Positions 946 through 36,436 of a DNA stretch of 43,373 nt are shown piece by piece; the first letter of the stretch is position 1, and every line of letters starts with the position of its first letter. This stretch comes from Candidatus Aenigmatarchaeota archaeon. Its GTDB lineage: Archaea > Aenigmatarchaeota > Aenigmatarchaeia > CG10238-14 > SCSR01. The DNA is taken from NCBI GenBank assembly GCA_030018055.1, contig JASEGN010000002.1, forward strand, positions 1 through 43,373, written 5' to 3'. Below the pieces are notes generated by a model that saw only the letters and a list, made by a program, of their open reading frames with translations, did no database searches and was not told where the DNA came from. Both the position numbers and the translations under genes were made by a program.

Positions 946-1851
946 TTAGTTTCCTTTCTCCATTACATCAGTTATATCATATCCTCCTACAACAAGTTTA
1001 TTTGTTTTTACCTCATACAAAGCTTTGTTTCTAAATTCAAGAACACGGTCTGCAAATAATTTAATTGTATAGACAATTATCTGGTGCTCTTTTTCGACAC
1101 CATCCTTGCGCATACGAACAAACAAGGGTTCTGTTTCATACTCTTCTTTCTTAACCTGTTCTAAGGATCTAATTTTTAATTTTTCATCTAATCCTTGCCA
1201 AAGTGTATTATATTCACCACCCACTATAGGAAATTTGCAATAAGTTATTGGAGGTCCTCTATCTAACTCCTCAGTAACCTGAAGCATCATTACACCATGT
1301 TCATTTTCACGCTTTTCTATTATCTCCCAAATTACTGATTGCCATGTTCCTTTTGGACCCCAAGGTAAGGCTGGATGAAGAGCGATACAATCGTAAAATT
1401 CACATTTTGGCTTGCCCCAAATAGTCATATCACCAATCGAAACACATAAATCAGGCCTCTCATAATCTCCTAGATAACCTGGAGCCAAACAAGCTTCATC
1501 ATACAATTCCCTCCACTTATCTAAAATTGGTGTGTGAACGTCGTACCTTAACTTTCCGTGCAATGCTACTAGTTCTTCCTTACCCTTCTCTCTCATTTTA
1601 GGAGCAAACTTATCTGAAGAAAATGTAACCAAAGGTAACCCATAGCTATTAACCAACCTAAAAAATTCATCTCCATAAGGTCTTTCTCCTGGCTCTATGT
1701 TGCTGAACACGAATGATATTTCTATGTCAAGAATACCTTCATTCTTTGCTTTTAATACAGTTTCAAGTAACTCTCTTGCAGCCTTTCTACCTTCTTCTGA
1801 TTTCACTTCACCAGACGAAAACCATCCAATTTTATAAGTCATCATGCCCAC
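946..1851 (-). CDS. formyltransferase-domain protein (PurN/Fmt-like, atypically long)
   Basis: 301-aa ORF with a formyl_trans_N-like core (..IALHPALPWGPKG..). It sits between glyA and purD. It is longer than canonical PurN, so the substrate is uncertain. Confidence 0.5.
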   Translation of the reverse strand: MGMMTYKIGWFSSGEVKSEEGRKAARELLETVLKAKNEGILDIEISFVFSNIEPGERPYGDEFFRLVNSYGLPLVTFSSDKFAPKMREKGKEELVALHGKLRYDVHTPILDKWRELYDEACLAPGYLGDYERPDLCVSIGDMTIWGKPKCEFYDCIALHPALPWGPKGTWQSVIWEIIEKRENEHGVMMLQVTEELDRGPPITYCKFPIVGGEYNTLWQGLDEKLKIRSLEQVKKEEYETEPLFVRMRKDGVEKEHQIIVYTIKLFADRVLEFRNKALYEVKTNKLVVGGYDITDVMEKGN

Positions 1852-2820
1852 CCATATCTTCTTAACAATGTGCTATCAGGATACCTTTTTCTTCCATAAT
1901 CTGTAATACTCAGACTGGCAGCTTCTGTTGCAAGTTGTGCACATTCATTTAGTGATTTGTTTAAAAGTAAGCCAGCCAAAAAACCTGCATCGTAAACATC
2001 TCCTGCCCCTGTTGTATCAACAACCTCAACTTTAGTTATAGGAGTATAAATTTCTTTATCATTATAAAAAACTTTAGAACCTTCTTCACCTAGCTTACAT
2101 GCAACAATTTCAGAATATTTTAAAAGTTCTTTCACTCCCCTTTCATAGTTTTTTCCTGTAATGCGTTCAATTTCTTTATCATTTGCAAAAATAACATAAC
2201 TCTTTTCTATTATTGGTAGTAATGCGTCCAGCCCTCTTTCAGCATAAAGCATACCTGGATCAAAACTAATCTTTACATGCGAGGGAGTATTCTTCACAAC
2301 ATACTTCTGAGTTTCAAATGAGGTATCACCAACCATGGAAGTTAAATGTAGAAATTTTGTGTCGAAAGTCCAATCCAAACCAACCTTACCAAGAACTTCA
2401 TCGATAGTTAGTTCACGAACAGTACTAGGAAAAACACACAAAGTTCTATTTTTATTCTCATCCAAAAGGCAAACACAAATACTACTATCTCCTTTTTCCT
2501 TTAACGATTCCTGAAGTATCAACTGCTCCTAAATTATGAATTGAAAAATTACTGAATTCATCATTGCCAGCCTTGGTTATGTAACCAGTTTTAAATCCTA
2601 ATTTCGATAAGGCATATACCACATTTGTAGCTGAACCACCACCAGCACTTCCTTTAAATTTCCCAATTTTTCTTAATTTCTCCAAAAGTGGAGATAGTTC
2701 TTCACGCTTAAAAGAGCGCTCCTCACCAACTTCCAACTTTTTACTTACAAGACTAACGTCAACATTAATTTCATAGAAAGTATCAACATTCAATGCGCCA
2801 AAACCAATTACATCTTTCAT
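1842..2820 (-). pseudogene. PfkB-family sugar/nucleoside kinase interrupted by a single-nucleotide frameshift
   Basis: Two overlapping ORFs. 2485..2820 holds the N-terminal part (GFGALNVD, GGGSATN). 1842..2522 holds the C-terminal part with the DTTGAGDVYDAGF PfkB signature. Deleting one A from the A5 run (T5 on plus strand, 2493-2497) joins them as ..VDTSGIVKGK-GDSSICVCLLDEN.. Confidence 0.75.
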
Positions 2821-9317: not shown

Positions 9318-9401
9318 TGGACCGGGCGGGACTTGAACCCACAACCTCGGCTTTGCAAGAGCCGCGATTTTGGCAAACTTCTACCATTGATCTACCGGCC
9401 C
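9318..9401 (-). tRNA. tRNA-Ala (anticodon UGC) with 12-nt intron in the D-arm
   Basis: Minus strand reads GGGCCGG UA GAUC AAUGGUA G[AAGUUUGCCAAA]AUC G CGGCU CUUGCAA AGCCG AGGUU GUGGG UUCAAGU CCCGC CCGGUCC A. It has a 7-bp acceptor with the G3:U70 Ala identity pair and a good T-arm. The cloverleaf only closes if 12 nt are removed from the 3' side of the D-stem. CCA is not encoded. Confidence 0.85.
9369..9380 (-). other. mini-intron of tRNA-Ala (between D-stem positions 22/23)
   Basis: D-loop UGGU pairs with intron GCCA as a 4-bp central helix. It is flanked by 3-nt bulges AGA and AAA. Cutting after the 2nd bulge nucleotide gives exactly the GAUC/GAUC D-stem. There is no inner helix, only a 5-nt loop. 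Confidence 0.6.
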
Positions 9402-9433: not shown

Positions 9434-9619
9434 ATGCCGAAACCAAAAAAATGGAAAGGAAAGATAAAAAAGAAGAGAGGGAAATTAGCTTGCCCCAAAT
9501 GCCTTTCTACAGATTTTGAGATTTTAGGCGAGGAATTTACTACAATGGCCAAATATCCTTTCTTACTCAGAATAAAATGTAAAAAATGTGGTTACGAAGG
9601 AGAAGCCATTAAGATTTAG
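9434..9619 (+). CDS. small lysine-rich zinc-ribbon protein
   Basis: 61-aa ORF with CPKC...CKKC (two CxxC pairs) and a basic N-terminus. Confidence 0.5.
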   Translation: MPKPKKWKGKIKKKRGKLACPKCLSTDFEILGEEFTTMAKYPFLLRIKCKKCGYEGEAIKI

Positions 9620-11890
9620 AACTCTGCTTTTGGTATTTCCTCTGGTAATCCCTTTCTTTTTCTTATAGCTTTTGTTACAGACTCAAATAATTCTTTTGGT
9701 AACCTTTCAAAAGTTGTCTCAATTAAAGAGTAGAATCCTCTACCAGATGTTGACGATTTCAACGAAGCATCAAAACCAAATAAATCAGCTACAGGAATTT
9801 TTGCAGTTATTATACTTGCTCCCCTTTCTTCTCTCATAGCAAGAATTTGCCCTCTTCTTCCTTCCACTTCTCTTATAGCTTCTCCCATAAGCTCAGTAGG
9901 CACATCTATTCTAATTGTTTGTTTTGGCTCTAGCAAAGCTATGCTCATCAACATACCTTGCCTTATAGCATATCTTGTAGCTGGCATTATCTGTCCCGGG
10001 CCTCTATGCACAGGGTCTTCATGTAGTTTAGCATCAGCAATTGTGACTTTTACTCTTGTACATGGTTCTTTGGCTAAAGGTCCTTCATCCATTAAATTGG
10101 AAAAGGCATCTTTGACCATTTCAATAATTTCATTCATAAATTGCACTCCTTTGGTTAAATCAATTAGAACATTTCTATTGTGTATTAAGATGACATTTTT
10201 TGCAATATCGTATGGTATTCCGGCCTCTGAAATTTTCCTAAATATATGAATGTGTTTGGGTCTCAGCTCCATTTCACTTGGTATTTCACCCTCTAGCATT
10301 TTTTTATAAACACTATCCTCTAATGGCTCAACAATTATGTAAAGCTTATTATGTTTGTTTGGAGATTTACCCTCTATCTCAGGTGATTTCGCAACTATAG
10401 TTTCTCTATAAACAACAATAGGTGGCGACATCTCAACCTCAAGCCCAATCTGTCTTAATTTATTCTCAACCTTTGCCTCAAGATGAAGCTCTCCAAGGCC
10501 TGAGACTAAGTATTCTCCAGTTTCGGGGTTAATTTTTACTTGTAGAGTAGTATCTTCTCTTCCAATCTGTTTCAAAGAGTCTACTACTCTTGGTAGCTCC
10601 ATTGGGTTTTTAGCCTCTACCGACTTTGTAACAACAGGCTCGAACAAATGTCTAATCTCCTCAAAAGGCTCAACCAGAGCATCTGGTTCACAAACAGTTT
10701 CACCAGTAAAAGCCTCTGGAATGCCGACTATAGCTGCAATATTTCCCGCAGTAATTTCATCAATAGGTATGCGTAGAATTCCTTTGTATACAGCAACTTG
10801 TTGGATTCTTTTTTTCACTCTTTGGCCAATTAAATACACTTCATCTCCCCTTGAAATTTTACCAGAAAATAGCCTCCCAGTAGCAACAAAACCAACATGA
10901 GGATCAGGAACCATTTTTGTTATTATTATTACAGTTTTTCCATTTGCATCGCAAGCAAGCATCTGTTGCCCAATCTCCGATTCTAAATCACCACGCCAAA
11001 TCCTACTTAGCCTATATTTCTGTGCTTCCAAAGGATTTGGAAGATGCTTTATTATCATATCTAAAACAACTTGGTGTAATGGAGCTATTTTTGCCAGTTC
11101 ATCCTCTTTATCTTCCATGGTCAAATCGATTATTTGCTTAAAAGTTATCCCAGTCTTTTTCATATAAGGGATTGAGATCGCCCATCTCTTTAAAGCAGAA
11201 CCAAAAGCTACACTACCCTCTGCTACAGAAACAAGCCATTTATTTTTATATTCCTCTTCAGCATATTTTTGGATTAAAATATTTACATCAGCGATTATTC
11301 TTTCAAATCTTTGTTGTAGCTCTTCTGGAGTTAGCTTTAGTTGTTTAATGCATTTATCAACTTTATTAACAAACAAAACTGGCTTTACCCTTTCTCTTAG
11401 TGCCTGACGAAAAACAGTCTCGGTTTGCGGCATGATCGATTCAACCGCATCTATCAAAACAATTGTTCCATCTACAGCGCGCATTGCCCTGGTAACATCT
11501 CCACCAAAATCTACGTGACCAGGAGTGTCAACTAAGTTAATTAAATAATCTTCTCCCTCGTACTCATGAACCATTGAAACGTTAGCACCATAGATGGTTA
11601 GCTGACGTCTACGTTCTTGTTAATGTCCAGAAAGGCTTACCTTTCTAGAATTCATCAAACCAAGTGTACATCACTTTTCCGGCCATTTCTTCAGCTATCA
11701 TGCATGCGCTGGTTTTTAATGACCATCTGCGCCACTCATCAAGTTATCAGTCAATGTCGTCTTTTCATGCACATAAGCTATTACACCTATGCGATCCATG
11801 ATGAACATGACTGCTTGTGGCTACATTGCGAATTCTAGTAGGGTTTCTCATGACTTCTTTAATTCTTTCTATCATCTCTCTCTTCGGCAT
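9616..11890 (-). CDS. fusA: translation elongation factor 2 (aEF-2); CDS = join of exons 11890-11795, 11763-11727, 11703-11651, 11619-9616 after removal of three BHB introns
   Basis: The ORF track gives only 9616..11574 (MVHEYEGEDYLINLVDTPGHVDF.., NKVD, diphthamide-region HRGPGQI). Upstream there is an SD plus an ATG at 11890 that opens MPKREMIERIKEVMRNPTRIRN. The spliced product totals 2190 nt (729 aa plus stop). It carries ..[24 protein letters not shown]...[25 protein letters not shown]. Confidence 0.85.
11620..11650 (-). other. aEF-2 mRNA intron 3 (31 nt, BHB)
   Basis: Outer helix UUU/AAG. Central helix GAUG/CAUU (3 WC plus 1 G-U). Bulges are AAU and AAC. The inner helix is 10 bp (UCUAGAAAGG/CCUUUCUGGA) with a UAAG loop. 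Splicing joins GAU GAA|CAA GAA to give FDE|QER. Confidence 0.8.
11704..11726 (-). other. aEF-2 mRNA intron 2 (23 nt, BHB)
   Basis: Outer helix GUG/CAU. Central helix GCGC/GCGC (4 bp). Bulges are AGA and AUG. The inner helix is UGGU/ACCA with an 8-nt loop. Splicing joins GCA G|GC AUG AUA to give GAGMI. Confidence 0.8.
11764..11794 (-). other. aEF-2 mRNA intron 1 (31 nt, BHB)
   Basis: Central helix CAUG/CAUG (4 bp). Bulges are GAU and AAA. The inner helix is 8 bp (CGCAUAGG/CUUAUGUG, including 2 G-U) with an 8-nt loop. The outer helix is weak (1 bp). Splicing joins ..CAU GGA|AAG ACG.. to give HG|KTT. Confidence 0.75.
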
Positions 11891-11893
11891 TAC

Positions 11894-11901
11894 TCACCTC
11901 C
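11894..11901 (-). promoter_or_regulatory. Shine-Dalgarno-like GGAGGUGA upstream of aEF-2 start
   Basis: Minus strand reads aaaaaaGGAGGTGAgtaATG, with the ATG at 11890-11888. Confidence 0.5.
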
Positions 11902-11906
11902 TTTTT

Positions 11907-12074
11907 TTAAATTTTTAGATTCCAAACTTTATAAGTTCCCTCCTTTCTAGAAGAAATTACATTCCATCTTTCCAATGTATTTAGACAATTAATAATTGTC
12001 GTTAGAGATTTTCCAAATTTTTTTGATAATTGTTTAGTGCTAATGGATTTGTTATTTTTGATTTCGTTTATCAT
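11907..12074 (-). CDS. small winged-helix/HTH protein (55 aa, below ORF-track cutoff)
   Basis: My own translation gives MINEIKNNKSISTKQLSKKFGKSLTTIINCLNTLERWNVISSRKEGTYKVWNLKI. This is an HTH followed by a beta-wing pattern. The stop lies 17 nt before the aEF-2 start. Confidence 0.55.
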   Translation of the reverse strand: MINEIKNNKSISTKQLSKKFGKSLTTIINCLNTLERWNVISSRKEGTYKVWNLKI

Positions 12075-12161: not shown

Positions 12162-12404
12162 TCAACTTCTTTTCAGTCTTATTATGATATTACCACCTCT
12201 TTCAGAGGGTAGCATTTCTACTATTTCTATTTTTTCCCCAGGGTACCCATGTTTTTTAGTAGTCACATACTTATATACAGTAGCTCTGGGTTCTTTTATT
12301 ATTCTTGCTAATTTATTAATCCATATTCCCTTTGGGTGTTTAGATAGCTCTTTCAATATTTTTTCAACTAATTTCAGTCTTTTCGGTCCCTTAACTCCTA
12401 CCAT
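12162..12404 (-). CDS. small winged-helix DNA-binding protein
   Basis: 80-aa ORF. ..GIWINKLARIIKEPRATVYKYV.. is an HTH-like segment followed by a wing. Confidence 0.55.
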   Translation of the reverse strand: MVGVKGPKRLKLVEKILKELSKHPKGIWINKLARIIKEPRATVYKYVTTKKHGYPGEKIEIVEMLPSERGGNIIIRLKRS

Positions 12405-14060: not shown

Positions 14061-14324
14061 CTACTCTTCTATAACCAGAGTTGATATGGGGAATGGTTTA
14101 CCGCAGGTAACTCCTAATTCCTTGCTAGTTCCTTTAAAAATCTCCACCTTTAAATTAAAAATTTTCGCATTATGCTCAATTTGTTTACGCATAGGTTCTG
14201 GAATATTTTCTGCTATAACAATAAATTTTGGTTTACCACTTTTTATAAACTTAATCGATTGCTTGTACCCAAAGGTGATTTTATTTGACTTAATTGCATC
14301 AAGGATAATTTCTGTTAAACTCAT
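14061..14324 (-). CDS. rpl30e: 50S ribosomal protein eL30
   Basis: 87-aa ORF of the L7Ae/L30e fold type, in the conserved position after rpoA''. Confidence 0.75.
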   Translation of the reverse strand: MSLTEIILDAIKSNKITFGYKQSIKFIKSGKPKFIVIAENIPEPMRKQIEHNAKIFNLKVEIFKGTSKELGVTCGKPFPISTLVIEE

Positions 14325-16867
14325 TCGCTTTCTTCCCCAATTTTAGCTATAAGCTCGAACATCCCTGTTCCAGCAGGAACAACATGCCCAATTAAAACAT
14401 TCTCAAAAATTCCTCTGAACCTTTCAACCTCATTTTTTACAGAAGCTTTAACCAAATGTTTTATAGTCTCTTCAAAAGCAGCCCTAGCTAAAACAGATGT
14501 TTTAGTCCCAGCAATACCATATCTTCCAATTGGTCTTATTTTGCCAGAAAATGTCATAATATCTGCAACCAGAGCTATGTGCCTCATATCCACCTCTAAC
14601 CCCTGCTCGTTCAGAGTTTTCATAACCTCCCTAATTATGAGTTCTCTTGCAGCCTCTATCCCAAGTACTTCTACCACTTCATGTATGTTGGTTGTAATTG
14701 TTTTTGTTGGATCTACTTCTCTTATTTTCAAAACTTCTTTTAAGTTTGAACCCATCGTTATTATTACCAGTCTCCTTTCTTCCCGCCTAACTATGGCATT
14801 TTTAATACCTTTAATTGGATTTATGCTAAGACTCAGAACAGTCTCTTTTAACTTTTCCAAAGCTCTAATATCAACTTTAGTTTTAGGTAAAATTATTATA
14901 TTTCCTCCTTTCTTCCTTATGTCTACGTTTTTTAATTTTCCTTTTGCTACCGCAATAATTTTTTTTGCAACTCCTCTATCTAATGGTTCAATTTCTACAT
15001 AACCCTTATCGAGGTTTAAAGAAACTGTTTTTATCACACTTGCAACAGCTTTTTCAATAATTTCTTCAGCAACTCTTCTTGCTGTTTCCTCACTGTCGTA
15101 TTTTCTCTTTAAATAAATTGTCATCTCAGGATTTTCGGGTGTCTTTTTTGCATCGAAAATCTCTATGAGCCTTGGTAGCCCGTAAGTTACCTTTATACCA
15201 GCTGTTCCAGCAATATGGTAGGTACGCATAGTATTATGGGTTACTATCCCATCGAATGTAACAAACGTTTCTAAATCATCGACCGATACGTCATACACAT
15301 ACTCTCCATTATACTCAATATGAGAAATTTCTTCTATTTTATCCCAAACAACATCTGAATCTAGAGCTTGCTTTAATATGTTAATCTCCATAGAAATATC
15401 TATCTTTTTTTTCTCGGCAATTTGTCCAAACTTATCAAGATATTTTCTGAGAGTTTCTCTTCCTATCCTCTGTCTTTTAGTAAAATTGTTTACATATCTT
15501 GTTGGAAATTTTAACTTTTTAGATATTACGAATAATAGATTACCGATTCCGGGTACCATGTCTGTATACTCACGAACCTTTCTCAGATTTTTGTACTTTT
15601 CACTTAATTCTTTTAATAACATTTTTCGTTCGTTTAGAGAAGTTCCTATTTTCTCAAGAAACCTGGAAGCATACTTATATGATATATACAATTGATGTCT
15701 ATCATTGGATTTACTACAAAATATACCAAACCTAGTTAATAGAAGCGCAATACCATCTATTAGTTCTTCTGATTTAGAAGAAGCTCGTATGCTCCTTCTA
15801 TCTAAAGTTATATTACCGTCGCCATCAAAGTACGCTTGAAGTATGGCACTTACGAATTCTTCTTTAGCACTAAATGCAAACGACGGCACTTTTTTGTTTT
15901 CTGAATTAGCACCACATGTTATCTTTAGAAAGTTCGAAAGTAATGATGAATTTATACGAAGATCATGGCCTTTTGAAAAACCTCTAAGATTATCATACTC
16001 GTTTATTGTAAGTTGGAAATATTTTGCAAATTTTCTAAGGTTCAGATTAAAATCTTCATTAGTATTGGAGATATTTACAAAATTTTTCGTACAATTCCCT
16101 TCTGACAGATAAGCTCCAATCAACCATCCAAACAAAGAATCCAACTTTAATGTATCTGGCAAACTTTTACTATGCACCACATAAGGATATACATCCCCAC
16201 CTATTTTAACTAGACTTTTGGATGGAAGCAACGAACTTATTTTTATTTCAGACAAACAATTCTCTGGCAATAATTTCATTACAGGTATCCTATCTCCAAT
16301 TTTTAATTGCTTACCACTTACAGGAATAACTTTATTATCCAACCTAAGTACAAAGGAATGGTGATCGGTTGCTATCACTCTTCTTCCACTTGCAGTCTTT
16401 ATTCTCAGCAGTTTTTTAGGAGATTTATGTCTAATCACCGATTTTATTCTTTTTAATTTTAATTTTTCATCGTGATCTAAGCTGTAAACATAAAAGTTGA
16501 CATTCTTTGGAAGGTCTAATATTTCACTGCCATTTTGTTTAACATAACCAAATTTTTTTATTAACCCATCAACAAATCTACCAATTTCTATAGGCTCTAT
16601 TTTTTCATCGCTTTTAATTAGTATTTTTTCCTCGTAACCAAGGCTCATCTGGGTGGATGGTTCGGAAATAGATTGAGCGGTAATTATACCCATCGCTTCT
16701 CCGGGTTCAAATCTACTCATCAGGTAAACTTTCTTTACAGCTTCCCTTAGCTTCTCCACCTGTGCCTCACTTAACTTCATTTTTTCAGCTACCTTAAGAA
16801 TTTCTTCATTAATTTTTTCTGGTAACTCAATTTTATCCAAAAATCTTTCTTGCGATCCCTTCGACAT
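14321..16867 (-). CDS. rpoA2: DNA-directed RNA polymerase subunit A'' (exteins 74 + 303 aa) carrying a 471-aa intein
   Basis: 848-aa ORF. The exteins ..ITAQSISEPSTQM | TMRTYHIAGTAG.. rebuild the conserved A'' motif (S-EP-TQMT-RT-H-AG). The C-extein ends ..VPAGTGMFEL. Confidence 0.9.
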   Translation of the reverse strand: MSKGSQERFLDKIELPEKINEEILKVAEKMKLSEAQVEKLREAVKKVYLMSRFEPGEAMGIITAQSISEPSTQMSLGYEEKILIKSDEKIEPIEIGRFVDGLIKKFGYVKQNGSEILDLPKNVNFYVYSLDHDEKLKLKRIKSVIRHKSPKKLLRIKTASGRRVIATDHHSFVLRLDNKVIPVSGKQLKIGDRIPVMKLLPENCLSEIKISSLLPSKSLVKIGGDVYPYVVHSKSLPDTLKLDSLFGWLIGAYLSEGNCTKNFVNISNTNEDFNLNLRKFAKYFQLTINEYDNLRGFSKGHDLRINSSLLSNFLKITCGANSENKKVPSFAFSAKEEFVSAILQAYFDGDGNITLDRRSIRASSKSEELIDGIALLLTRFGIFCSKSNDRHQLYISYKYASRFLEKIGTSLNERKMLLKELSEKYKNLRKVREYTDMVPGIGNLLFVISKKLKFPTRYVNNFTKRQRIGRETLRKYLDKFGQIAEKKKIDISMEINILKQALDSDVVWDKIEEISHIEYNGEYVYDVSVDDLETFVTFDGIVTHNTMRTYHIAGTAGIKVTYGLPRLIEIFDAKKTPENPEMTIYLKRKYDSEETARRVAEEIIEKAVASVIKTVSLNLDKGYVEIEPLDRGVAKKIIAVAKGKLKNVDIRKKGGNIIILPKTKVDIRALEKLKETVLSLSINPIKGIKNAIVRREERRLVIITMGSNLKEVLKIREVDPTKTITTNIHEVVEVLGIEAARELIIREVMKTLNEQGLEVDMRHIALVADIMTFSGKIRPIGRYGIAGTKTSVLARAAFEETIKHLVKASVKNEVERFRGIFENVLIGHVVPAGTGMFELIAKIGEESE
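15233..16645 (-). mobile_element. intein with LAGLIDADG homing endonuclease in rpoA''
   Basis: It starts SLGYEEKILI (Ser1) and ends ..IVTHN, followed by +1 Thr. The LAGLIDADG motifs are WLIGAYLSEGN and ILQAYFDGDGN. Length is 1413 nt (471 aa), in frame. Confidence 0.85.
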
Positions 16868-19800
16868 TTATACCAATCTTTTCAATTTTTGAAGGGTCTA
16901 GCCCATCTATTCCGGCTAAAAATTGGATTATTCTTCCTGAAGAATCCCTTACCGTACCATCATATTCAACCTTTAAATCCTCGAGTGCTCCAACCAACCT
17001 CCTTTCCATGTAGCCCGAATGCCTTGTTTTTAATGATTTGTCCATCAAGGATTCTCTACTATTCATAGCATCAAAAAAGAATTCAAATGGATTTAGACCA
17101 TCTTTAAATCCTCTTCCCACAAATCCCTTTCCTTCTACTGACATATCGCCAATTTCAAAGTGAGGGAAAGTTCTTCCAAAATATCCTTTCTCTATTCTTT
17201 CGCCCATTATTGCCTCTTGTCCAACACAAGCAGCAGTTTGAATCACATTTACTTTTTCTCCTCTAGCACCACTCCTTACCATTGCCAATGTATAATTTTC
17301 TTTTATACTAACATCCAGCACAGCTTCAATTTCGCCTAAAACTCTGTTAAGCCTTCTCCTTATTAAAACTTCCAAACTTTCTTTCAGTGTCCTGCCTACT
17401 AAAATTTTAAGCTCTCCACTTTCAAATTTTTGGATGAGTTGATTTATATCCCTTCTAGCATTTTCTAGTATATCTTTTATTTTGGTTTTAGCTTGAGCTG
17501 GAATATCTTGATCAGAGATGCTTATGGAAAACCCATTTTTCATGAGATAAGCTATGGAAAGTCTTGAAATATCAAACAAGAATTTTTTCATAACCTGTGG
17601 CCCATAGGTATTTTCCATCTTGTCTAATATTTTCCCACTCTCAGCTCCAATACCAACCTTATCTATGTAACCACGCTTCAATTCACCATTTTCAATCACA
17701 ACAATTTCGCCAGCTTTCGATTTATACTCGATTGAAAAATCTTTGGGAAGAAACAAACTGAAAACTTCTCCCCCACTCAGAAACTTTTTGGATGGTATTT
17801 CTATGTTTGGATCTATAGATCTAATCAATTGTACAAACTCTTTCCTAGGAATTTTATCTTCTCTAGTTGTAAGTAGATACAAGCCTGTAATAAAGTCTTG
17901 CCTAGCACCAATTATTGGTCCAGAAAATCTTGGACTTCTTATATTCTTTGGAACTAGCATCAAGTTAGCTGCTTCCACTCTTGCTTCTTCTGTCTGTGGC
18001 ACATGTAAATTCATTTCATCACCATCAAAGTCGGCATTGTAAGGTGGACAGGTGGTGAGATGTAATCTTAGTGTTCTGAAGGGCATCACTTTAACTGTAT
18101 GGCCCATGATGCTCATCCTATGTAAGCTAGGTTGACGATTAAAAAGTACCATATCACCATCAACAAGATGCCTTTCCACTATCCAACCAGGAGCTATCTC
18201 CTGTGCAACTTCTTCTTTGTTAGTTTCAATTATTCTTTTTCTTCTACCATCAGGTCTAACAACATAGTTTGCTCCTGGCCAACTTTCTGGTCCATTTAGA
18301 ACAATTCTTCTCAGGTTATCTATGTTTTTTTCATCAACTCTCTCTGGCAAGGTTAACTCTTTAGCTATAACTTCTGGGACACCAACTTCGTCGATGTTTA
18401 TAAGTGGGTCAGGACTTATAACTGAACGAGCAGAGAAATTTACCCTTTTCCCAGCCAAGTTGCCCCTAAACCTACCTTCCTTTGTTTTTAAACGTTGAGA
18501 AAGTGTTTTAAGTGCTCTACCTGAGCGATGTCTAGCAGGTGGAATACCAGAAAGCTCATTATCGAAATAGGTTGCGACATGATACTGAAGAAGTTCCCAA
18601 AGATCGTCTATTATAAAGTCTGGAGCTCCAAGCTCTATATTTTCTTTCAGCCTTTCATTTATCCTAACCAAATCAACAAGTTTATGGGTTAGATCATCCT
18701 CACTCCTTTCACCAGTTTCTAGCGTAATCGATGGTCTTACTGTTACTGGTGTGACTGGAAACAAGGTTAGGATAAACCATTCAGGACGCATACCTTTAAA
18801 GCCTAGAAGCTCAAGATCTTCTTCCTTTATTTTTTCAAGTCTTGACCTAATTTCAATTCGATTAAGAATTTCATCATTTTCAAAAATTGTATACGGTTTC
18901 ATGAATTTTAGCTTGCCTTGTTCAGTTTTACAATGAGGACATTTCTTTTTAACAATCTTCACAACATCTTTTAGGTGGAAAACTTTCATTTTTTTCATTT
19001 CCTTCTCTTCGATTAGCATGCCCCCACATTTTTTACAGAAGACTCTAAGTAGCATAAATACAATTTTCGAGTAATGAACATGGATTATTGGTCTCACAAG
19101 CTCAACATAACCAAAATGCCCTTGGCATTCTCCAACACTACCACCACATGTTCTACATCTTACGCCTGGATCCACAACCCCAAGTCTAGGATCCATTAAC
19201 CCACCTTCAATTGGATATCCTTCCTGGTCATACAGCTCGGTCTTTTTTATTTTTGCAGCAGCCATTTTCCTAATCATCTCTGGACTCAGAACACTAAATT
19301 CTATTCTATCAACTCCAGTGCCATCTTCCCTAACAACTATTTTTGGATAGATTAACATGCTTTTAAGTTCCTCCAGCAAAAGTTTGAAAGCATAGGACAT
19401 TTCAACATCTAAAATTTTACTCTCTCCACAGATAGGACAATATTTTCTCTTTTTTACTCTATCCTCAATTGCCAATAACCCACATGTGGTACAAAGTGGA
19501 ATTGTTGCTTTATCGGAATCAAATCTCTCTTTTAAAGCTAAGACAGCACCATGAGCTATCAAACAGTCTTTCTCCATCTCCCCAAGTCTTAAACCACCTT
19601 CTTTACTCCTACCTTCTGTTGGTTGTTTTGTTAAAAGAGTAACTGGTCCTCTAGATCTAGCGTGGATTTTGTTAGAAACAAGATGGTCTAATTTCTGATA
19701 ATAAGCACATCCTATCAGTATCTGAGCTTTAAACATTTCACCAGTTTTACCATCGTACATGGTTTCAACGCCGTTGTTTTTAAATCCAAGTTTTTCAAGT

Positions 19801-21125
19801 GCAGCTCTTATCTCTGCTTCGGGTGTGGGATTAAATGCTGGGGAATCGATATAATCACCCTTTAAAGCAGCGGCCTTTCCAGCCATCAACTCTAGCATAG
19901 TACCAATTGTTTGTCTAGATGGAATTCCATGAGGATTAAAAATTATATCAGGAACGATACCATCTTCGGTAAAAGGCATATCTTCTTGAGGAACTACCAG
20001 ACTAACAACACCCTTTTGTCCGTGCCTGGTAGCAAATTTATCACCAATTTCAGGTCTTTTTAAATCTCTTACTCTAACCTTTATTAGTTTTGTTCCATCG
20101 ATAGTTTCTGTTAAATATACTTTGTCGGCAATCCCTCTGTCCCCATGTCTTAACCTAATTGAAGTTTCTCTTATATTTTGAGTACCAGCTATAAATCTAT
20201 CCATAGTCCCAAGAAATCTAAGTGGAGAAACTCTTCCAATCAAAACATCCATTGAGCCTATCTCTGTTTCCGGATTTATAATCCCATCTTCTGGTAAATG
20301 CTTGTAAGCATCTTCACCGGCATACCCCCTTACACCTGCTGATGGAATACCAATCTTATCTTCCTGCCCACCCATGTATACCTTTTCCTCAGCTTCATAG
20401 GTTCTAAACATGGTTGACCAAAATAGTCCTCTTTGAATTGAGTTTGCGTTGATGATAATAGCATCCTCAGTGTTATAACCATCATAGCATGCAATAGCAA
20501 CAACGACATTGGTTCCACTTGCATACTTCTCGTATGGTGTTGTTTTGTGTGTATAGGTTTGGATAAGAGGCATTTGTGGGTAGATTAGAACATTCGATTT
20601 TGTATCTACACGATTCTGGTAGTTTGTTGAAAATATTCCTATAGCTTGCCCTATCATCTTTGCTCCGTAGTTTACTCTGTCTCCTCGATTGAACTCTGGA
20701 TATGGGATAAAGGAGCCAGAAAGGCCAAAGATAAGTGAGGGGTCTAACTCCAAGTGCGTATGCCGAGGTGTTATTTTATCTTTACTTATTGCAATAAGCA
20801 TATTTTCCTCTTCTTCAGCATCTAGATATTCGATCACACCCATTTTTACTAAGTCGTTAAAACTAATTTCTCCCTTTCTCAGTTTTTCAAGAAGCTCTTC
20901 AGTCAATTTTGGACTACCATTTTCTACAACAATGAGTGGTCTCCTTACTCTACCACCATCTGTTGGAATTGAAAGCATGCCCAAGTGCTTATGATAGACA
21001 ACATTTATTTGATTTGAAATAATGCCTCTTCTTCTAGCACCTCTTATCTTTTCAACTAATTCTTCTGGTTTATCTGTTGTACCAACAAACGTTCCATTAA
21101 GAAATATATCAACCAACCTTTTCAC
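16833..21125 (-). CDS. rpoB1-rpoA1: fused DNA-directed RNA polymerase subunits B' and A' in one 1430-aa ORF
   Basis: The N-terminal ~600 aa are RpoB' (GDKFATRHGQKGV, NPHGIPSRQTIG, Zn ribbon CTTCG..CPICG, MSYAFKLLLEELKSM). The ORF runs on without a stop or start codon into RpoA' (LSPEMIRKM, GGLMDPRLG, CRTCGG..CQGHFG, NADFDGDEMN). The junction is ..LIYPKIVVREDGTGVDRIEFSVLSP.. at about 19300-19345. Confidence 0.85.
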   Translation of the reverse strand: MKRLVDIFLNGTFVGTTDKPEELVEKIRGARRRGIISNQINVVYHKHLGMLSIPTDGGRVRRPLIVVENGSPKLTEELLEKLRKGEISFNDLVKMGVIEYLDAEEEENMLIAISKDKITPRHTHLELDPSLIFGLSGSFIPYPEFNRGDRVNYGAKMIGQAIGIFSTNYQNRVDTKSNVLIYPQMPLIQTYTHKTTPYEKYASGTNVVVAIACYDGYNTEDAIIINANSIQRGLFWSTMFRTYEAEEKVYMGGQEDKIGIPSAGVRGYAGEDAYKHLPEDGIINPETEIGSMDVLIGRVSPLRFLGTMDRFIAGTQNIRETSIRLRHGDRGIADKVYLTETIDGTKLIKVRVRDLKRPEIGDKFATRHGQKGVVSLVVPQEDMPFTEDGIVPDIIFNPHGIPSRQTIGTMLELMAGKAAALKGDYIDSPAFNPTPEAEIRAALEKLGFKNNGVETMYDGKTGEMFKAQILIGCAYYQKLDHLVSNKIHARSRGPVTLLTKQPTEGRSKEGGLRLGEMEKDCLIAHGAVLALKERFDSDKATIPLCTTCGLLAIEDRVKKRKYCPICGESKILDVEMSYAFKLLLEELKSMLIYPKIVVREDGTGVDRIEFSVLSPEMIRKMAAAKIKKTELYDQEGYPIEGGLMDPRLGVVDPGVRCRTCGGSVGECQGHFGYVELVRPIIHVHYSKIVFMLLRVFCKKCGGMLIEEKEMKKMKVFHLKDVVKIVKKKCPHCKTEQGKLKFMKPYTIFENDEILNRIEIRSRLEKIKEEDLELLGFKGMRPEWFILTLFPVTPVTVRPSITLETGERSEDDLTHKLVDLVRINERLKENIELGAPDFIIDDLWELLQYHVATYFDNELSGIPPARHRSGRALKTLSQRLKTKEGRFRGNLAGKRVNFSARSVISPDPLINIDEVGVPEVIAKELTLPERVDEKNIDNLRRIVLNGPESWPGANYVVRPDGRRKRIIETNKEEVAQEIAPGWIVERHLVDGDMVLFNRQPSLHRMSIMGHTVKVMPFRTLRLHLTTCPPYNADFDGDEMNLHVPQTEEARVEAANLMLVPKNIRSPRFSGPIIGARQDFITGLYLLTTREDKIPRKEFVQLIRSIDPNIEIPSKKFLSGGEVFSLFLPKDFSIEYKSKAGEIVVIENGELKRGYIDKVGIGAESGKILDKMENTYGPQVMKKFLFDISRLSIAYLMKNGFSISISDQDIPAQAKTKIKDILENARRDINQLIQKFESGELKILVGRTLKESLEVLIRRRLNRVLGEIEAVLDVSIKENYTLAMVRSGARGEKVNVIQTAACVGQEAIMGERIEKGYFGRTFPHFEIGDMSVEGKGFVGRGFKDGLNPFEFFFDAMNSRESLMDKSLKTRHSGYMERRLVGALEDLKVEYDGTVRDSSGRIIQFLAGIDGLDPSKIEKIGINVEGIARKIFG

Positions 21126-24990: not shown

Positions 24991-25746
24991 ATGATAGATT
25001 CTCATTGTCACCTAGAACAAAGGGACTTTGACAAAGATAGAGATGAGATAATAGAGAAATCTAAGAAAGAATTAAAAGCTGTAATTACATGCTGCGCTCA
25101 TCCTAAGGATTTCAACTTAACGATGCAAATGGTTGAAAAAAATAAAGGATTTATCTTTGCCACAGTTAGTATTCATCCTTTATATATAAAAGAAATTACT
25201 GAGAGAGAAAAGGATGAGTTTTTAGATTTAATTAGAAAAAATAAGGATAGAATAACTGCATTAGGTGAGCAAGGTCTTGATTATTTCGAAATAAAAGAAA
25301 GTAAATGGCGACAAAAACAAAAGGAACTTTTTATTGAATTTATTAATTTGTCGAAGGAATTGAATCTCCCTCTAGTAGTTCATGCTAGAGACGCTTTTGA
25401 AGATGCAATAAAAATCTTAGAGCAACAAGATGCAAAAAATGTTTTGATGCATATGTTTGGTGCATATCATTTATTAAAACGTGTGATAGAAAATAATTGG
25501 TTTATTTCTCTCAACACAATAATTTTGCGAAGCAAAAAACATAAAAAAATTACAAGAGACGTACCCTTAGAAAAATTATTAACAGAAACCGATTCACCTT
25601 GGCTAGACCCTGCAGGAGGTAGAAACACTCCTCTAAATGTAAAAATAGTAATAGAAAAAATATCCGAAATAAAAAAGATGCCTCAGAATCAAGTTGATGA
25701 GATAACAACACAAAATGCGATAAGGTTTTTTAATTTACATCTTTAG
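24991..25746 (+). CDS. tatD: TatD-family metal-dependent hydrolase/DNase
   Basis: 251-aa ORF with MIDSHCHL.., ..VVHARDA.. and ..TETDSPWL.. motifs. Confidence 0.85.
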
Positions 25747-36316: not shown

Positions 36317-36331
36317 ATAAACTGCCGGGAT

Positions 36332-36345
36332 TATTTATGACCGAT
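36332..36345 (+). other. tRNA-Ser intron 1 (14 nt, acceptor/D junction)
   Basis: Outer helix CUGC/GCAG (4 bp, using 2 leader nt). Central helix CGG(G)/(A)CCG (3 bp plus G-A). Bulges are AUU and AUG. Cutting after the 2nd bulge nucleotide yields GCCGGGAU|GGCAG. Confidence 0.55.
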
Positions 36346-36375
36346 GGCAGAATCAGGTAATGCGCCAGCCTTGAG

Positions 36376-36386
36376 TTCAAAAGGAA
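36376..36386 (+). other. tRNA-Ser intron 2 (11 nt, canonical 37/38 position)
   Basis: The anticodon stem (5 bp) serves as the outer helix. The central helix is CUU(G)/(A)AGG (3 bp including G-U, plus G-A). Bulges are AGU and AAA. Removal gives the 7-nt loop CUUGAGA. Confidence 0.6.
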
Positions 36387-36436
36387 AGCTGGTGTCCCTT
36401 TGGGACGTCTGGGTTCAAATCCCAGTCCCGGCGTCC

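What the first reader, a model, noticed from the sequence alone, without database searches (positions are those of the whole stretch)
11620..11890. Three BHB (tRNA-type) introns interrupt the coding sequence of elongation factor aEF-2
The only long ORF for aEF-2 starts at MVHEYEG (11574) and lacks the ~75-aa N-terminus with the GTPase P-loop. Upstream on the minus strand, a strong SD (GGAGGUGA) and an ATG at 11890 open a typical aEF-2 N-terminus, MPKREMIERIKEVMRNPTRIRN. The frame then breaks three times (0, +1, 0, +1), with stop codons in each segment. Every break coincides with a short segment that folds into a bulge-helix-bulge: two 3-nt bulges on opposite strands, separated by exactly 4 bp.
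- Intron 1 (11794-11764, 31 nt): central helix CAUG/CAUG, bulges GAU and AAA, and an 8-bp inner hairpin.
- Intron 2 (11726-11704, 23 nt): outer GUG/CAU, central GCGC/GCGC, bulges AGA and AUG, inner UGGU/ACCA.
- Intron 3 (11650-11620, 31 nt): outer UUU/AAG, central GAUG/CAUU, bulges AAU and AAC, and a 10-bp inner hairpin with a UAAG loop.
I applied one rule to all six sites: cut after the 2nd bulge nucleotide. This removes 85 nt and gives ..[23 protein letters not shown](G)[39 protein letters not shown]... That restores the GKT P-loop and the GAGMI motif, where the Gly codon is assembled across the intron 2 junction. It also gives a gapless colinear match to archaeal EF-2 N-termini as I recall them, and a CDS of 2190 nt (729 aa, the normal aEF-2 size). 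From memory, the only established archaeal protein-gene BHB intron is in cbf5 of some Crenarchaeota. Three such introns in an essential translation factor would be new. They would also make aEF-2 synthesis depend on the tRNA splicing endonuclease and RtcB ligase. Exon codons that take part in the helices (for example CAU-CAU giving HVHHG instead of the usual HVDHG) suggest RNA structure constrains the protein sequence.
Basis: partly seen in the sequence, partly recalled or inferred. Interest (0 to 1): 0.95.

Follow-up and report, generated by a model that had tools for sequence, protein, structure and literature searches.

The report
tRNA-type mini-introns split archaeal EF-2 gene
The gene for the essential translation factor EF-2 in this DPANN archaeon (Aenigmatarchaeota) is interrupted by three tiny introns of the kind normally cut out of tRNAs, and relatives carry up to six at 15 sites, in a domain of life where only one protein gene (cbf5) was known to have such an intron in its coding sequence.

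Summary
Removing 11794-11764, 11726-11704 and 11650-11620 (minus strand; 31, 23 and 31 nt) gives a 2190-nt CDS. Its 729-aa product aligns without gaps to Pyrococcus EF-2.

Each junction fits one rule: a 4-bp central helix, two 3-nt bulges, and a cut after the second bulge nucleotide. The chance of this at all three sites is about 1e-9.

I fetched EF-2 loci from MAGs and metagenomes. They hold 39 distinct frame-breaking mini-insertions (12-42 nt) at 15 sites, all within codons 28-130.
- 36 of 39 obey the rule, against 0-1 when the 3' partner is slid.
- Same-site introns show compensatory changes.
- 73 of 158 aligned loci have no interruption of any kind.
- The four closest relatives share the window's third intron site.
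- The same rule turns the neighbouring "tRNA-Arg" into a canonical tRNA-Ala.

Four flanking genes in related loci have none. EF-2 is the only intron-split protein gene found in the window.

The best explanation is that EndA cuts the EF-2 pre-mRNA and RtcB ligates it. This is inferred; no transcript data were available.

A lead: free-standing LAGLIDADG genes and a small HTH gene lie upstream of EF-2 only in intron-bearing loci. The searched literature reports nothing comparable.

The parts
11894..11901 (-). Shine-Dalgarno-like GGAGGUGA, 3 nt upstream of the EF-2 ATG
   Evidence: Sequence read directly
11795..11890 (-). aEF-2 exon 1 (96 nt; MPKREM...SSHVHHG). Its last 6 nt supply the 5' strand of central helix 1 (CAUG) and the first two bulge nucleotides.
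11764..11794 (-). Intron 1, 31 nt, site HHG^K (codon 32). CAUG GA|U - 9-bp hairpin - CAUG AA|A. In-frame UGA in the unspliced reading.
   Evidence: Same-site introns in L134 (CACG/CGUG, compensatory), L016, L125 and L064.
11727..11763 (-). aEF-2 exon 2 (37 nt; [12 protein letters not shown] + first G of the Gly codon)
11704..11726 (-). Intron 2, 23 nt, site GA^G (codon 45). GCGC AG|A UGGU-loop-ACCA GCGC AU|G. In-frame UAA.
   Evidence: Homologous 20-nt intron in L064 (GCGC/GCGA, 3 of 4 pairs).
11651..11703 (-). aEF-2 exon 3 (53 nt; (G)[17 protein letters not shown])
11620..11650 (-). Intron 3, 31 nt, site FDE|Q (codon 62). GAUG AA|U - 10-bp hairpin with UAAG loop - CAUU AA|C. In-frame UAG.
   Evidence: (z = -3.6). 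A 20-nt intron at the same site in L021, L160-L164 and L166/L167 has GACG/CGUU, a compensatory U-A to C-G change.
9616..11619 (-). aEF-2 exon 4 (2004 nt including the stop). Holds DTPGH, NKVD and the diphthamide-site motif HEDPVHRG.
9318..9401 (-). tRNA-Ala(UGC) gene with a 12-nt D-arm intron at 9380-9369 (UGGU AG|A AGUUU GCCA AA|A). It serves as an internal calibration of the cleavage rule and lies 215 nt downstream of EF-2.
12162..12404 (-). 80-aa HTH-like ORF ('w80') between S7 and EF-2. Homologues 76-82% identical lie directly upstream of EF-2 only in the intron-bearing loci L134, L016 and L104. Possibly part of a mobile cassette.
11907..12074 (-). 55-aa winged-HTH ORF directly upstream of EF-2. 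A similar ORF lies upstream of the intron-bearing EF-2 of L020. Its relation to the introns is unknown.

Best explanation
The EF-2 gene at 9616-11890 (minus strand) is transcribed as a pre-mRNA with three mini-introns of 31, 23 and 31 nt in its first 271 nt.

At each junction, four exon nucleotides just upstream of the 5' splice site pair with four nucleotides near the 3' end of the intron. This 4-bp helix is flanked by two 3-nt bulges on opposite strands. An intron hairpin lies on the inside. A short exon-exon helix lies on the outside: 3 bp for introns 2 and 3, and only 1 bp for intron 1.

This is the bulge-helix-bulge substrate of the archaeal tRNA-splicing endonuclease EndA. EndA would cut after the second nucleotide of each bulge. 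The RNA ligase RtcB would join the exons and probably circularise the introns. The product is an mRNA for a normal 729-aa EF-2.

Unspliced transcripts stop within 2-10 codons inside each intron, so only spliced mRNA gives a protein with the P-loop.

Shown here: the anatomy, the exact restoration of the protein, the conservation and covariation of the motif, and the use of the same rule by a tRNA intron in the same window.
Inferred: the enzymes involved, and that splicing happens.
For: 1. The excision gives a 2190-nt ORF that is colinear without gaps with solved EF-2 structures.
2. All three junctions have 4/4 central pairs and 3-nt bulges at a register giving the best protein match. The chance is about 1e-9.
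3. The catalogue holds 39 distinct mini-insertions at 15 sites, from the window plus 20 related loci that come from independent assemblies. 36 of 39 obey the rule and 3 have 3 of 4 central pairs. Sliding the 3' partner by 1-4 nt in either direction gives 0-1 of 39. In the first 32 cases, 28 complied against 1.8 expected by chance.
4. Compensatory changes occur:
   - Site 32: CAUG/CAUG against CACG/CGUG.
   - Site 62: GAUG/CAUU against GACG/CGUU.
   - Site 53: CGGU/ACUG, CGGU/GUCG and CGGC/GCCG.
   - RNAalifold on nine site-28 introns predicts the motif on its own, with 4 compensatory pairs and no broken central pair.
5. Presence and absence both occur. 73 of 158 aligned loci have no interruption of any kind. 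The four closest relatives (84-86% identity) all carry the site-62 intron and are annotated as 652-653-aa truncated proteins.
6. The same rule applied to the tRNA gene 215 nt downstream removes 12 nt and gives a canonical tRNA-Ala(UGC) with G3:U70.
7. The exons are fully conserved and keep the G1, G3 and G4 motifs and the diphthamide-site motif.
Against: - No transcript, proteomic or enzymatic data exist for this locus.
- EndA and RtcB are not in the window or in any held locus, so the EndA type is unknown.
- Intron 1 has only a 1-bp outer helix, and many relatives' introns lack an inner helix (bulge-helix-loop type). According to the literature, such substrates need a broad-specificity EndA.
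- The hairpin of intron 2 is not more stable than shuffled sequence (z = 0.07).
- In a global fold of the 341-nt 5' region, only the BHB of intron 1 survives.
- Transcription and translation are coupled in archaea, so it is unclear how splicing outpaces ribosomes.
- A second, intact EF-2 elsewhere in the genome cannot be excluded from a 43-kb window.
Confidence: 0.87

Rival explanations
1. The locus is a decaying pseudogene. The three insertions are random indels, and a functional EF-2 lies elsewhere in the genome.
For: - The annotatable ORF lacks the P-loop.
- The window has at least one other broken gene, a pfkB-family kinase with a 1-nt frameshift.
- Only 43 kb of the genome was seen.
Against: - The exons carry no other defect and are about as conserved as in intact orthologues.
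- The insertions sit exactly where a single RNA rule restores the frame.
- Homologous insertions are kept at the same sites in diverged lineages, with compensatory changes.
- The locus is in the canonical S12-S7-EF-2 context.
- The genome scan returned one EF-2 locus per MAG.
Confidence: 0.03
2. The ribosome skips the insertions during translation, by programmed bypassing as in T4 gene 60 or the yeast mitochondrial byps elements. No RNA splicing is involved.
For: - The gaps are short (12-42 nt).
- They start near stop codons and contain hairpins, as bypass elements do.
Against: - Bypassing needs matching take-off and landing codons. For the window introns, exon and intron ends repeat only 0-2 nt, and for nearly all others fewer than 3 nt.
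- Several gaps begin inside a codon.
- The conserved feature is a 4-bp helix with two 3-nt bulges in exact register. Bypassing does not require this.
- The same rule operates in a tRNA gene, where there is no translation.
Confidence: 0.03
3. The insertions are removed at the RNA level by machinery other than EndA and RtcB, or at the DNA level.
For: - The enzymes were not identified here.
- Some introns are minimal bulge-helix-loop forms that narrow-specificity EndA types reportedly do not cut outside a tRNA body.
Against: - The geometry is exactly the EndA substrate.
- No ribozyme family matches (Rfam scan), and 12-42 nt is too short for a self-splicing intron.
- Independent assemblies all contain the insertions, so DNA excision is not the norm.
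Confidence: 0.05
4. The insertions are assembly or sequencing artefacts.
For: - The window is metagenome-like DNA.
- It contains a homopolymer frameshift elsewhere.
Against: - These are structured 23-31-nt insertions, not homopolymer errors.
- Homologous insertions occur at the same sites in contigs from many samples and assemblers (NCBI MAGs, JGI, ENA, Logan).
Confidence: 0.01

Closest known systems
BHB intron in the cbf5 (pseudouridine synthase) pre-mRNA of Desulfurococcales and Sulfolobales (Watanabe 2002; Yoshinari 2006; Yokobori 2009, PMC2738675)
   Same: - A BHB-like intron inside an archaeal protein-coding sequence.
- The motif is often relaxed.
- It is present or absent among related species.
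- It is removed by EndA, which was shown experimentally for cbf5.
   Different: - Different gene (EF-2) and different phylum (DPANN Aenigmatarchaeota, not Crenarchaeota).
- Three introns per gene here, and up to six in relatives, against one in cbf5.
- 15 insertion sites against one.
- Some introns are as short as 12-17 nt with no inner helix.
- Splicing is not yet shown.
Multiple and non-canonical-position tRNA mini-introns (hBHBh', HBh', BHL) of Thermoproteales, DPANN and Asgard archaea (Marck & Grosjean 2003; PMC5829648; PMC11291895)
   Same: - Same motif, same size range (reported as 11-175 nt) and same cleavage rule.
- Several introns can occur in one gene.
- The window's own tRNA-Ala has such an intron.
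   Different: - The host is an mRNA coding sequence, so the exon strand of each helix must also encode protein and the frame must be restored.
- There is no tRNA body to help recognition.
BHB intron in the 5' UTR of Haloferax volcanii HVO_1309 mRNA (PMC7714728)
   Same: An mRNA is a substrate of the tRNA-splicing endonuclease, which was shown in vivo and in vitro.
   Different: It lies in the UTR, not in the coding sequence, and there is only one intron.
Unconventional HAC1/XBP1 mRNA splicing in eukaryotes (Ire1 cleavage; ligation by Trl1 or RtcB). Cited from general knowledge.
   Same: - A short intron is removed from an mRNA by a protein endonuclease that recognises paired stem-loops, followed by a tRNA ligase.
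- Splicing changes the reading frame and is needed for an active protein.
   Different: - The endonuclease (Ire1) is different.
- That splicing is stress-regulated. No evidence for regulation was found here.
Archaeal rRNA BHB introns with or without LAGLIDADG homing endonuclease ORFs, and 'collaborative homing' of a free-standing endonuclease with an ORF-less intron (cyanophage psbA / F-CphI; recalled from memory, not verified here)
   Same: - Mobile-element behaviour at highly conserved sites.
- In relatives, a free-standing LAGLIDADG gene lies directly next to the intron-bearing gene.
   Different: - The window itself has no LAGLIDADG ORF.
- The introns are BHB type, not group I.
- Endonuclease activity and its target are untested.

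Membership tests
Archaeal BHB (EndA-dependent) intron | Two 3-nt bulges on opposite strands, separated by a 4-bp helix that spans the exon-intron junctions | tested here: met
   All three window introns have 4/4 central pairs and 3-nt bulges. 36 of 39 homologous or related introns do as well.
Archaeal BHB (EndA-dependent) intron | Flanking helices h (outer) and h' (inner), as in the strict hBHBh' form | tested here: inconclusive
   Introns 2 and 3 have a 3-bp outer helix and inner helices of 4 and 10 bp. Intron 1 has a 9-bp inner helix but only a 1-bp outer helix, which makes it relaxed and HBh'-like.
Archaeal BHB (EndA-dependent) intron | Cleavage at symmetric positions in the bulges yields the functional mature RNA | tested here: met
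   Cutting after the second bulge nucleotide gives a gapless EF-2. The same rule gives a canonical tRNA-Ala from the neighbouring gene.
Archaeal BHB (EndA-dependent) intron | The structure is conserved through covariation in homologues | tested here: met
   Compensatory changes at sites 32, 53 and 62, and in the inner helices at site 28. The slid-partner control gives 0-1 of 39.
Archaeal BHB (EndA-dependent) intron | EndA and RtcB are encoded by the genome, and the EndA type is compatible with relaxed motifs | not tested
   Neither gene is in the window (Pfam scans) or in the 171 held sequences. The whole genome was not available. The literature reports DPANN EndAs with an extra L3 loop that are linked to disrupted tRNA genes.
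Archaeal BHB (EndA-dependent) intron | Spliced RNA, circular intron, or in vitro cleavage is observed | not testable with these tools
   No transcriptome data or biochemistry were available.
cbf5 pre-mRNA intron family | Located in cbf5 of Crenarchaeota at the conserved cbf5 site | tested here: not met
   The host gene is EF-2 of an Aenigmatarchaeota-type genome. It works the same way but is not a member of this family.
Programmed translational bypass element | Matching take-off and landing codons flank the gap | tested here: not met
   Exon and intron ends repeat only 0-2 nt at the three window introns.
Intein | In-frame insertion that encodes a splicing domain | tested here: not met
   The insertions are 23-31 nt, break the frame and contain stops. 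True inteins occur at GK|T in the relatives L001, L005 and L015.
Self-splicing group I or group II intron | Ribozyme core | tested here: not met
   The Rfam gathering scan of the window finds only two tRNAs. 23-31 nt is far too short for a ribozyme core.
Homing-endonuclease-associated mobile intron (collaborative homing) | An endonuclease gene lies inside or next to the intron-bearing gene | tested here: inconclusive
   The window has no LAGLIDADG ORF, only w80 and w55. Six related lineages have a LAGLIDADG ORF directly upstream of an intron-bearing EF-2. The association is 5/12 against 0/73 for an endonuclease gene or w80.

The most novel reading that the evidence does not exclude
The EF-2 mini-introns may be mobile. 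The proposal is that they spread together with a cassette inserted between S7 and EF-2, made of a small HTH gene (w80) and a free-standing LAGLIDADG homing endonuclease.

The model works as follows. The endonuclease cuts intron-less EF-2 alleles in the highly conserved DNA that codes for the G domain. BHB introns that interrupt the target protect the carrier. The cassette and introns then spread by gene conversion.

This would explain three observations:
- Only EF-2 is affected.
- All 15 sites lie in codons 28-130, next to the cassette.
- Same-site introns are scattered across EF-2 subclades.

The result would be a protein-coding archaeal gene that is obligatorily dependent on the tRNA-splicing machinery, with a dynamic, multi-intron structure.
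Probability: 0.3. Interest if true: 0.92.

Novelty: new variant of a known kind. Interest (0 to 1): 0.85.

Why it matters
Since 2002, cbf5 has been the only archaeal protein-coding sequence known to carry an endonuclease-spliced intron. Papers from 2018, 2020 and 2025 still cite only that gene.

Several things would follow if this finding holds:
- **A second, richer case.** Here an essential and universally conserved translation factor carries three such introns, and up to six in relatives. They occupy 15 sites, are present or absent among close relatives, and include 12-nt minimal forms.
- **A new dependency.** Synthesis of EF-2, and therefore all translation, would depend on the tRNA-splicing endonuclease and ligase in this lineage.
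- **Evidence on specificity.** A DPANN EndA would have to recognise minimal BHB or BHL motifs in an mRNA, outside any tRNA body.
- **A natural system for intron evolution.** It offers a way to study intron gain, loss and possible homing in a prokaryotic protein gene. That bears on old questions about the origin and spread of introns.
- **A practical consequence for annotation.** About 20 of the 120 best database homologues are annotated as N-terminally truncated EF-2. EF-2 is a standard phylogenetic and completeness marker, so these annotations and any trees built on them are affected.

Tried and rejected
- **Motif-only scan of the window.** It gave 1,928 BHB-like hits. A scan for excisions that fuse ORFs mostly joined neighbouring genes. 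Neither was informative on its own.
- **Other broken genes in the window.** The pfkB-family kinase split (2485-2820 and 1842-2522) is a 1-nt frameshift in an A5 run that keeps DTSGIVKGKGDSS. It is not an intron. All other genes look intact by Pfam coverage.
- **Spliced alignment of S7, S12, NusA and L30e in 103 related loci.** 230 gene copies passed the score filter and none had a frame-breaking insertion. Only 12-15-nt in-frame indels in NusA and three long spurious jumps in L30e appeared.
- **Global fold of the 341-nt 5' region.** It keeps only the BHB of intron 1.
- **MAFFT plus RNAalifold on site-62 introns.** The longer window intron was misaligned, so I relied on the fixed-register catalogue instead.
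- **Exact look-up of the window ORF in public assemblies.** It is not on record.
- **EndA.** The M. jannaschii EndA sequence, verified against PDB entry 1a79, finds nothing in the window or in the 171 held sequences. The EndA type is therefore undetermined.
- **The 55-aa ORF as a homing-endonuclease remnant.** A weak blastx hit (E = 0.012) was not confirmed by BLASTP (E = 18). Rejected.
- **A 38-aa 'endonuclease remnant' in L104.** It is the 3' end of the w80 homologue read in another frame. Retracted.
- **Gap size between S7 and EF-2 against intron presence.** There is no clean relation. Most large gaps hold unrelated genes.
- **L137.** Its 13-nt break at about codon 195 has no BHB and comes with a deletion. 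It was excluded as a probable defect.
- **Aligner artefacts.** Jumps at codons below 20 or above 715, and jumps in truncated loci, were discarded.
Full report
**1. What is in the sequence**

On the minus strand, GGAGGTGA (11901-11894) precedes an ATG at 11890. This opens a typical EF-2 N-terminus. The frame closes after 41 codons. The only long ORF (652 aa) starts at 11574 and lacks the P-loop.

Removing 11794-11764 (31 nt), 11726-11704 (23 nt) and 11650-11620 (31 nt) gives a 2190-nt ORF of 729 aa. Its first 228 residues align without a single gap to residues 7-232 of Pyrococcus horikoshii EF-2 (5h7k, E = 7e-104). The GKT P-loop, GAGMI and QE..R..TI motifs are restored. The G3 and G4 motifs and the diphthamide-site motif HEDPVHRG are intact.

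**2. The RNA motif and chance**

- The central-helix 5' strand is exon positions -6 to -3.
- The 5' bulge is exon positions -2 and -1 plus intron position +1.
- The 3' strand is intron positions L-5 to L-2.
- The 3' bulge is the last two intron nucleotides plus the first nucleotide of the next exon.

All three introns have 4/4 central pairs:

| Intron | Central helix | Inner helix | Outer helix |
|---|---|---|---|
| 1 | CAUG/CAUG | 9 bp | 1 bp |
| 2 | GCGC/GCGC | 4 bp | 3 bp |
| 3 | GAUG/CAUU | 10 bp | 3 bp |

Local minimum-energy folds reproduce the helix, bulge and hairpin for each. The z-scores are -2.1 for intron 1, 0.07 for intron 2 and -3.6 for intron 3.

The motif alone is common, with 1,928 hits in the window. 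At a fixed register, however, a random site has a 4/4 central helix plus an inner helix of at least 4 bp with p = 5-7e-4. The protein alignment leaves only 2, 1 and 3 equivalent registers. The joint chance is therefore about 1e-9.

**3. Relatives**

EF-2 relatives identify the organism as Aenigmatarchaeota, a DPANN phylum. I wrote a protein-to-DNA spliced aligner, using an intact orthologue (L014) as reference, and ran it on 158 loci from genomes and metagenomes.

- 73 loci have no interruption of any kind. Most remaining flags are alignment-end artefacts, in-frame indels or inteins.
- About 14 Aenigmatarchaeota-type loci carry short frame-breaking insertions.
- Loci fetched through N-terminally truncated database proteins added more.
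- The catalogue has 39 distinct insertions of 12-42 nt at 15 sites. All lie in codons 28-130 of about 730.
- L064 has six introns, L134 five and L021 four.

Evidence that these obey the same rule:
- 36 of 39 have 4/4 central pairs at a register that gives the best protein match. Three have 3/4.
- When the 3' partner is slid by 1-4 nt in either direction, only 0-1 of 39 comply.
- In the first 32 cases, 28 complied against 1.8 expected by chance.

Same-site introns differ in sequence but keep their pairing:

| Site | Variants |
|---|---|
| 32 | CAUG/CAUG (window) and CACG/CGUG (L134) |
| 62 | GAUG/CAUU (window) and GACG/CGUU (L021, L160-L164, L166) |
| 53 | CGGU/ACUG, CGGU/GUCG and CGGC/GCCG |

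- RNAalifold on nine site-28 introns predicts the motif on its own, with four compensatory pairs.
- The four closest relatives (84-86% identity) all carry the site-62 intron and differ at the other sites.
- On a rough neighbour-joining tree, intron-bearing genes are interleaved with intron-less ones.

**4. Internal calibration**

The tRNA gene 215 nt downstream of EF-2 is called tRNA-Arg(GCG) by ARAGORN, and Rfam shows a 13-nt insertion in its D-loop. Applying the same rule (UGGU AG|A AGUUU GCCA AA|A; remove 9380-9369) gives a canonical 73-nt tRNA-Ala(UGC) with G3:U70. This organism therefore must process a 12-nt helix-loop intron at a non-canonical position with exactly this geometry.

A second tRNA (36343-36427) becomes a recognisable tRNA-Ser(UGA) only after two short excisions. 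Their boundaries are ambiguous.

**5. Surroundings**

The window carries the usual archaeal cluster of rpoH, rpoB, rpoA, L30e, NusA, S12, S7 and EF-2. RpoA'' and aRF1 contain LAGLIDADG inteins. No EndA or RtcB gene is present.

EF-2 is the only protein gene in the window that is split by introns. The broken pfkB-family kinase is a 1-nt frameshift. In 103 related loci, 230 copies of S7, S12, NusA and L30e have no such insertion.

**6. Mechanism**

The anatomy is that of the substrate of the archaeal tRNA-splicing endonuclease. That enzyme recognises two 3-nt bulges separated by 4 bp, largely independent of context (literature).

The most likely pathway is cleavage by EndA at both bulges, ligation by RtcB, and circularisation of the intron. 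These steps are inferred. Each intron carries an in-frame stop (UGA, UAA and UAG respectively), so unspliced mRNA yields only short peptides.

Open problems:
- The EndA type is unknown.
- Intron 1 has a weak outer helix.
- A global fold keeps only the BHB of intron 1.
- It is unclear how splicing competes with coupled translation.

**7. Rival explanations**

- **Pseudogene.** Contradicted by the perfect exons, conserved sites and covariation.
- **Ribosomal bypassing.** Lacks matching take-off and landing codons, and it cannot explain the tRNA case.
- **Assembly artefacts.** Excluded by homologous introns in many independent assemblies.
- **Ribozymes.** Excluded by size and by the Rfam scan.

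**8. A lead on mobility**

Free-standing LAGLIDADG ORFs with HTH domains lie directly upstream of EF-2, on the same strand, in L016, L064, L117, L161, L166/L167 and L168/L169. All of these loci carry introns.

The window's 80-aa ORF (12162-12404) has 76-82% identical homologues upstream of EF-2 only in the intron-bearing loci L134, L016 and L104. That identity is higher than for EF-2 itself (71-73%).

The association was tested on the 85 loci from the two unbiased scans that have at least 1 kb of sequence upstream of EF-2. An endonuclease gene or w80 is present in 5 of 12 intron-bearing loci and in 0 of 73 intron-less loci. Fisher's exact test gives p = 2.4e-5, without correction for phylogeny.

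Relatives also have inteins at GK|T in the P-loop. This suggests endonuclease-driven spread, with the introns protecting the target, but it is untested. The window itself has no endonuclease gene. The idea that its 55-aa ORF is an endonuclease remnant failed.

**9. Comparison with what is known**

Full-text searches found only two mRNA BHB introns: the cbf5 coding-sequence intron of Crenarchaeota, and a 5' UTR intron in Haloferax. Nothing was found on EF-2 or Aenigmatarchaeota. The library lacks most subscription-journal papers, so prior description cannot be fully excluded.

This is the known mechanism in a new setting:
- a new host gene and a new phylum;
- several introns per gene;
- many polymorphic sites;
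- minimal 12-17-nt forms inside a coding sequence.

**10.

- HVHHG is a clade trait. It is found in the intron-less Aenigmatarchaeota-type orthologues that have Thr-Ser-Ser before the P-loop, so the protein is not shaped by the helix. A second subclade reads AHIDHGKT. Only synonymous codon positions (CAU/CAC, GAU/GAC) covary with the intron strand.
- The inner helix of intron 1 is 9 bp, and its outer helix is 1 bp.

Noticed in passing
window 9318-9401 (-), intron 9369-9380: ARAGORN calls this gene tRNA-Arg(GCG). It is really a tRNA-Ala(UGC) with G3:U70, interrupted by a 12-nt helix-loop intron in the D-arm. Removing the intron gives a canonical 73-nt cloverleaf.
   Followed up: yes
window 36324-36430 (+): Rfam reports a weak tRNA hit (30.5 bits) that ARAGORN misses. 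It becomes a tRNA-Ser(UGA) only after two short segments are removed: about 14 nt near 36330-36345 and 11 nt at 36375-36386. The exact boundaries are ambiguous, and the central helices have only 3 of 4 pairs.
   Followed up: partly
window 16833-21125 (-): A single 1430-aa ORF fuses RpoB' (Rpb2 domains 4-7) in frame to RpoA' (Rpb1 domains 1-5). In archaea these are normally separate genes.
   Followed up: no
window 14321-16867 (-) and 25743-28370 (-): RpoA'' and the release factor aRF1 each contain an intein with a LAGLIDADG endonuclease domain. This genome is heavily colonised by homing elements in information-processing genes.
   Followed up: partly
window 1842-2820 (-), break near 2494-2498: A pfkB-family sugar kinase is split into two overlapping ORFs by a 1-nt frameshift in an A5 run. 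This could be a sequencing error, a pseudogene or recoding. It is not a BHB intron.
   Followed up: partly
L001, L005, L015, L037, L059, L079 (EF-2 codon 33/34): EF-2 of several archaea has a 1.1-1.6-kb intein inserted at GK|T of the P-loop. These include the GTDB-scan relative closest to the window (L001). The site is one codon from the window's intron 1. L015 has both this intein and the site-28 intron.
   Followed up: partly
L016:2029-3693, L064:618-2207, L117:1330-2187, L161:1-885, L166:3-905, L168:1295-2332: Free-standing LAGLIDADG ORFs with HTH domains, of three types, lie directly upstream of EF-2 on the same strand. They occur only in loci whose EF-2 carries mini-introns. In L168 the ORF runs in frame into EF-2 exon 1 and stops inside the intron.
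   Followed up: partly
window 12162-12404 (-); L134:1487-1723, L016:1895-2131, L104:1906-2139: An 80-aa HTH-like ORF between S7 and EF-2 is 76-82% identical across genomes whose EF-2 proteins are only about 70-73% identical. It is absent from the window's closer relatives. This patchy pattern suggests a mobile cassette.
   Followed up: partly
protein database hits P0001-P0120: About 20 of the 120 best EF-2 homologues are annotated as 652-696-aa proteins that start at an internal Met. All nine I could check are split by mini-introns (P0001-P0004, P0020, P0031, P0043). This points to a systematic mis-annotation of a marker gene.
   Followed up: partly
L137:1465-1477: A 13-nt frame break at about codon 195 of EF-2 has no BHB geometry and comes with a roughly 15-aa gap in the alignment. 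It is probably a defect or an assembly error.
   Followed up: no
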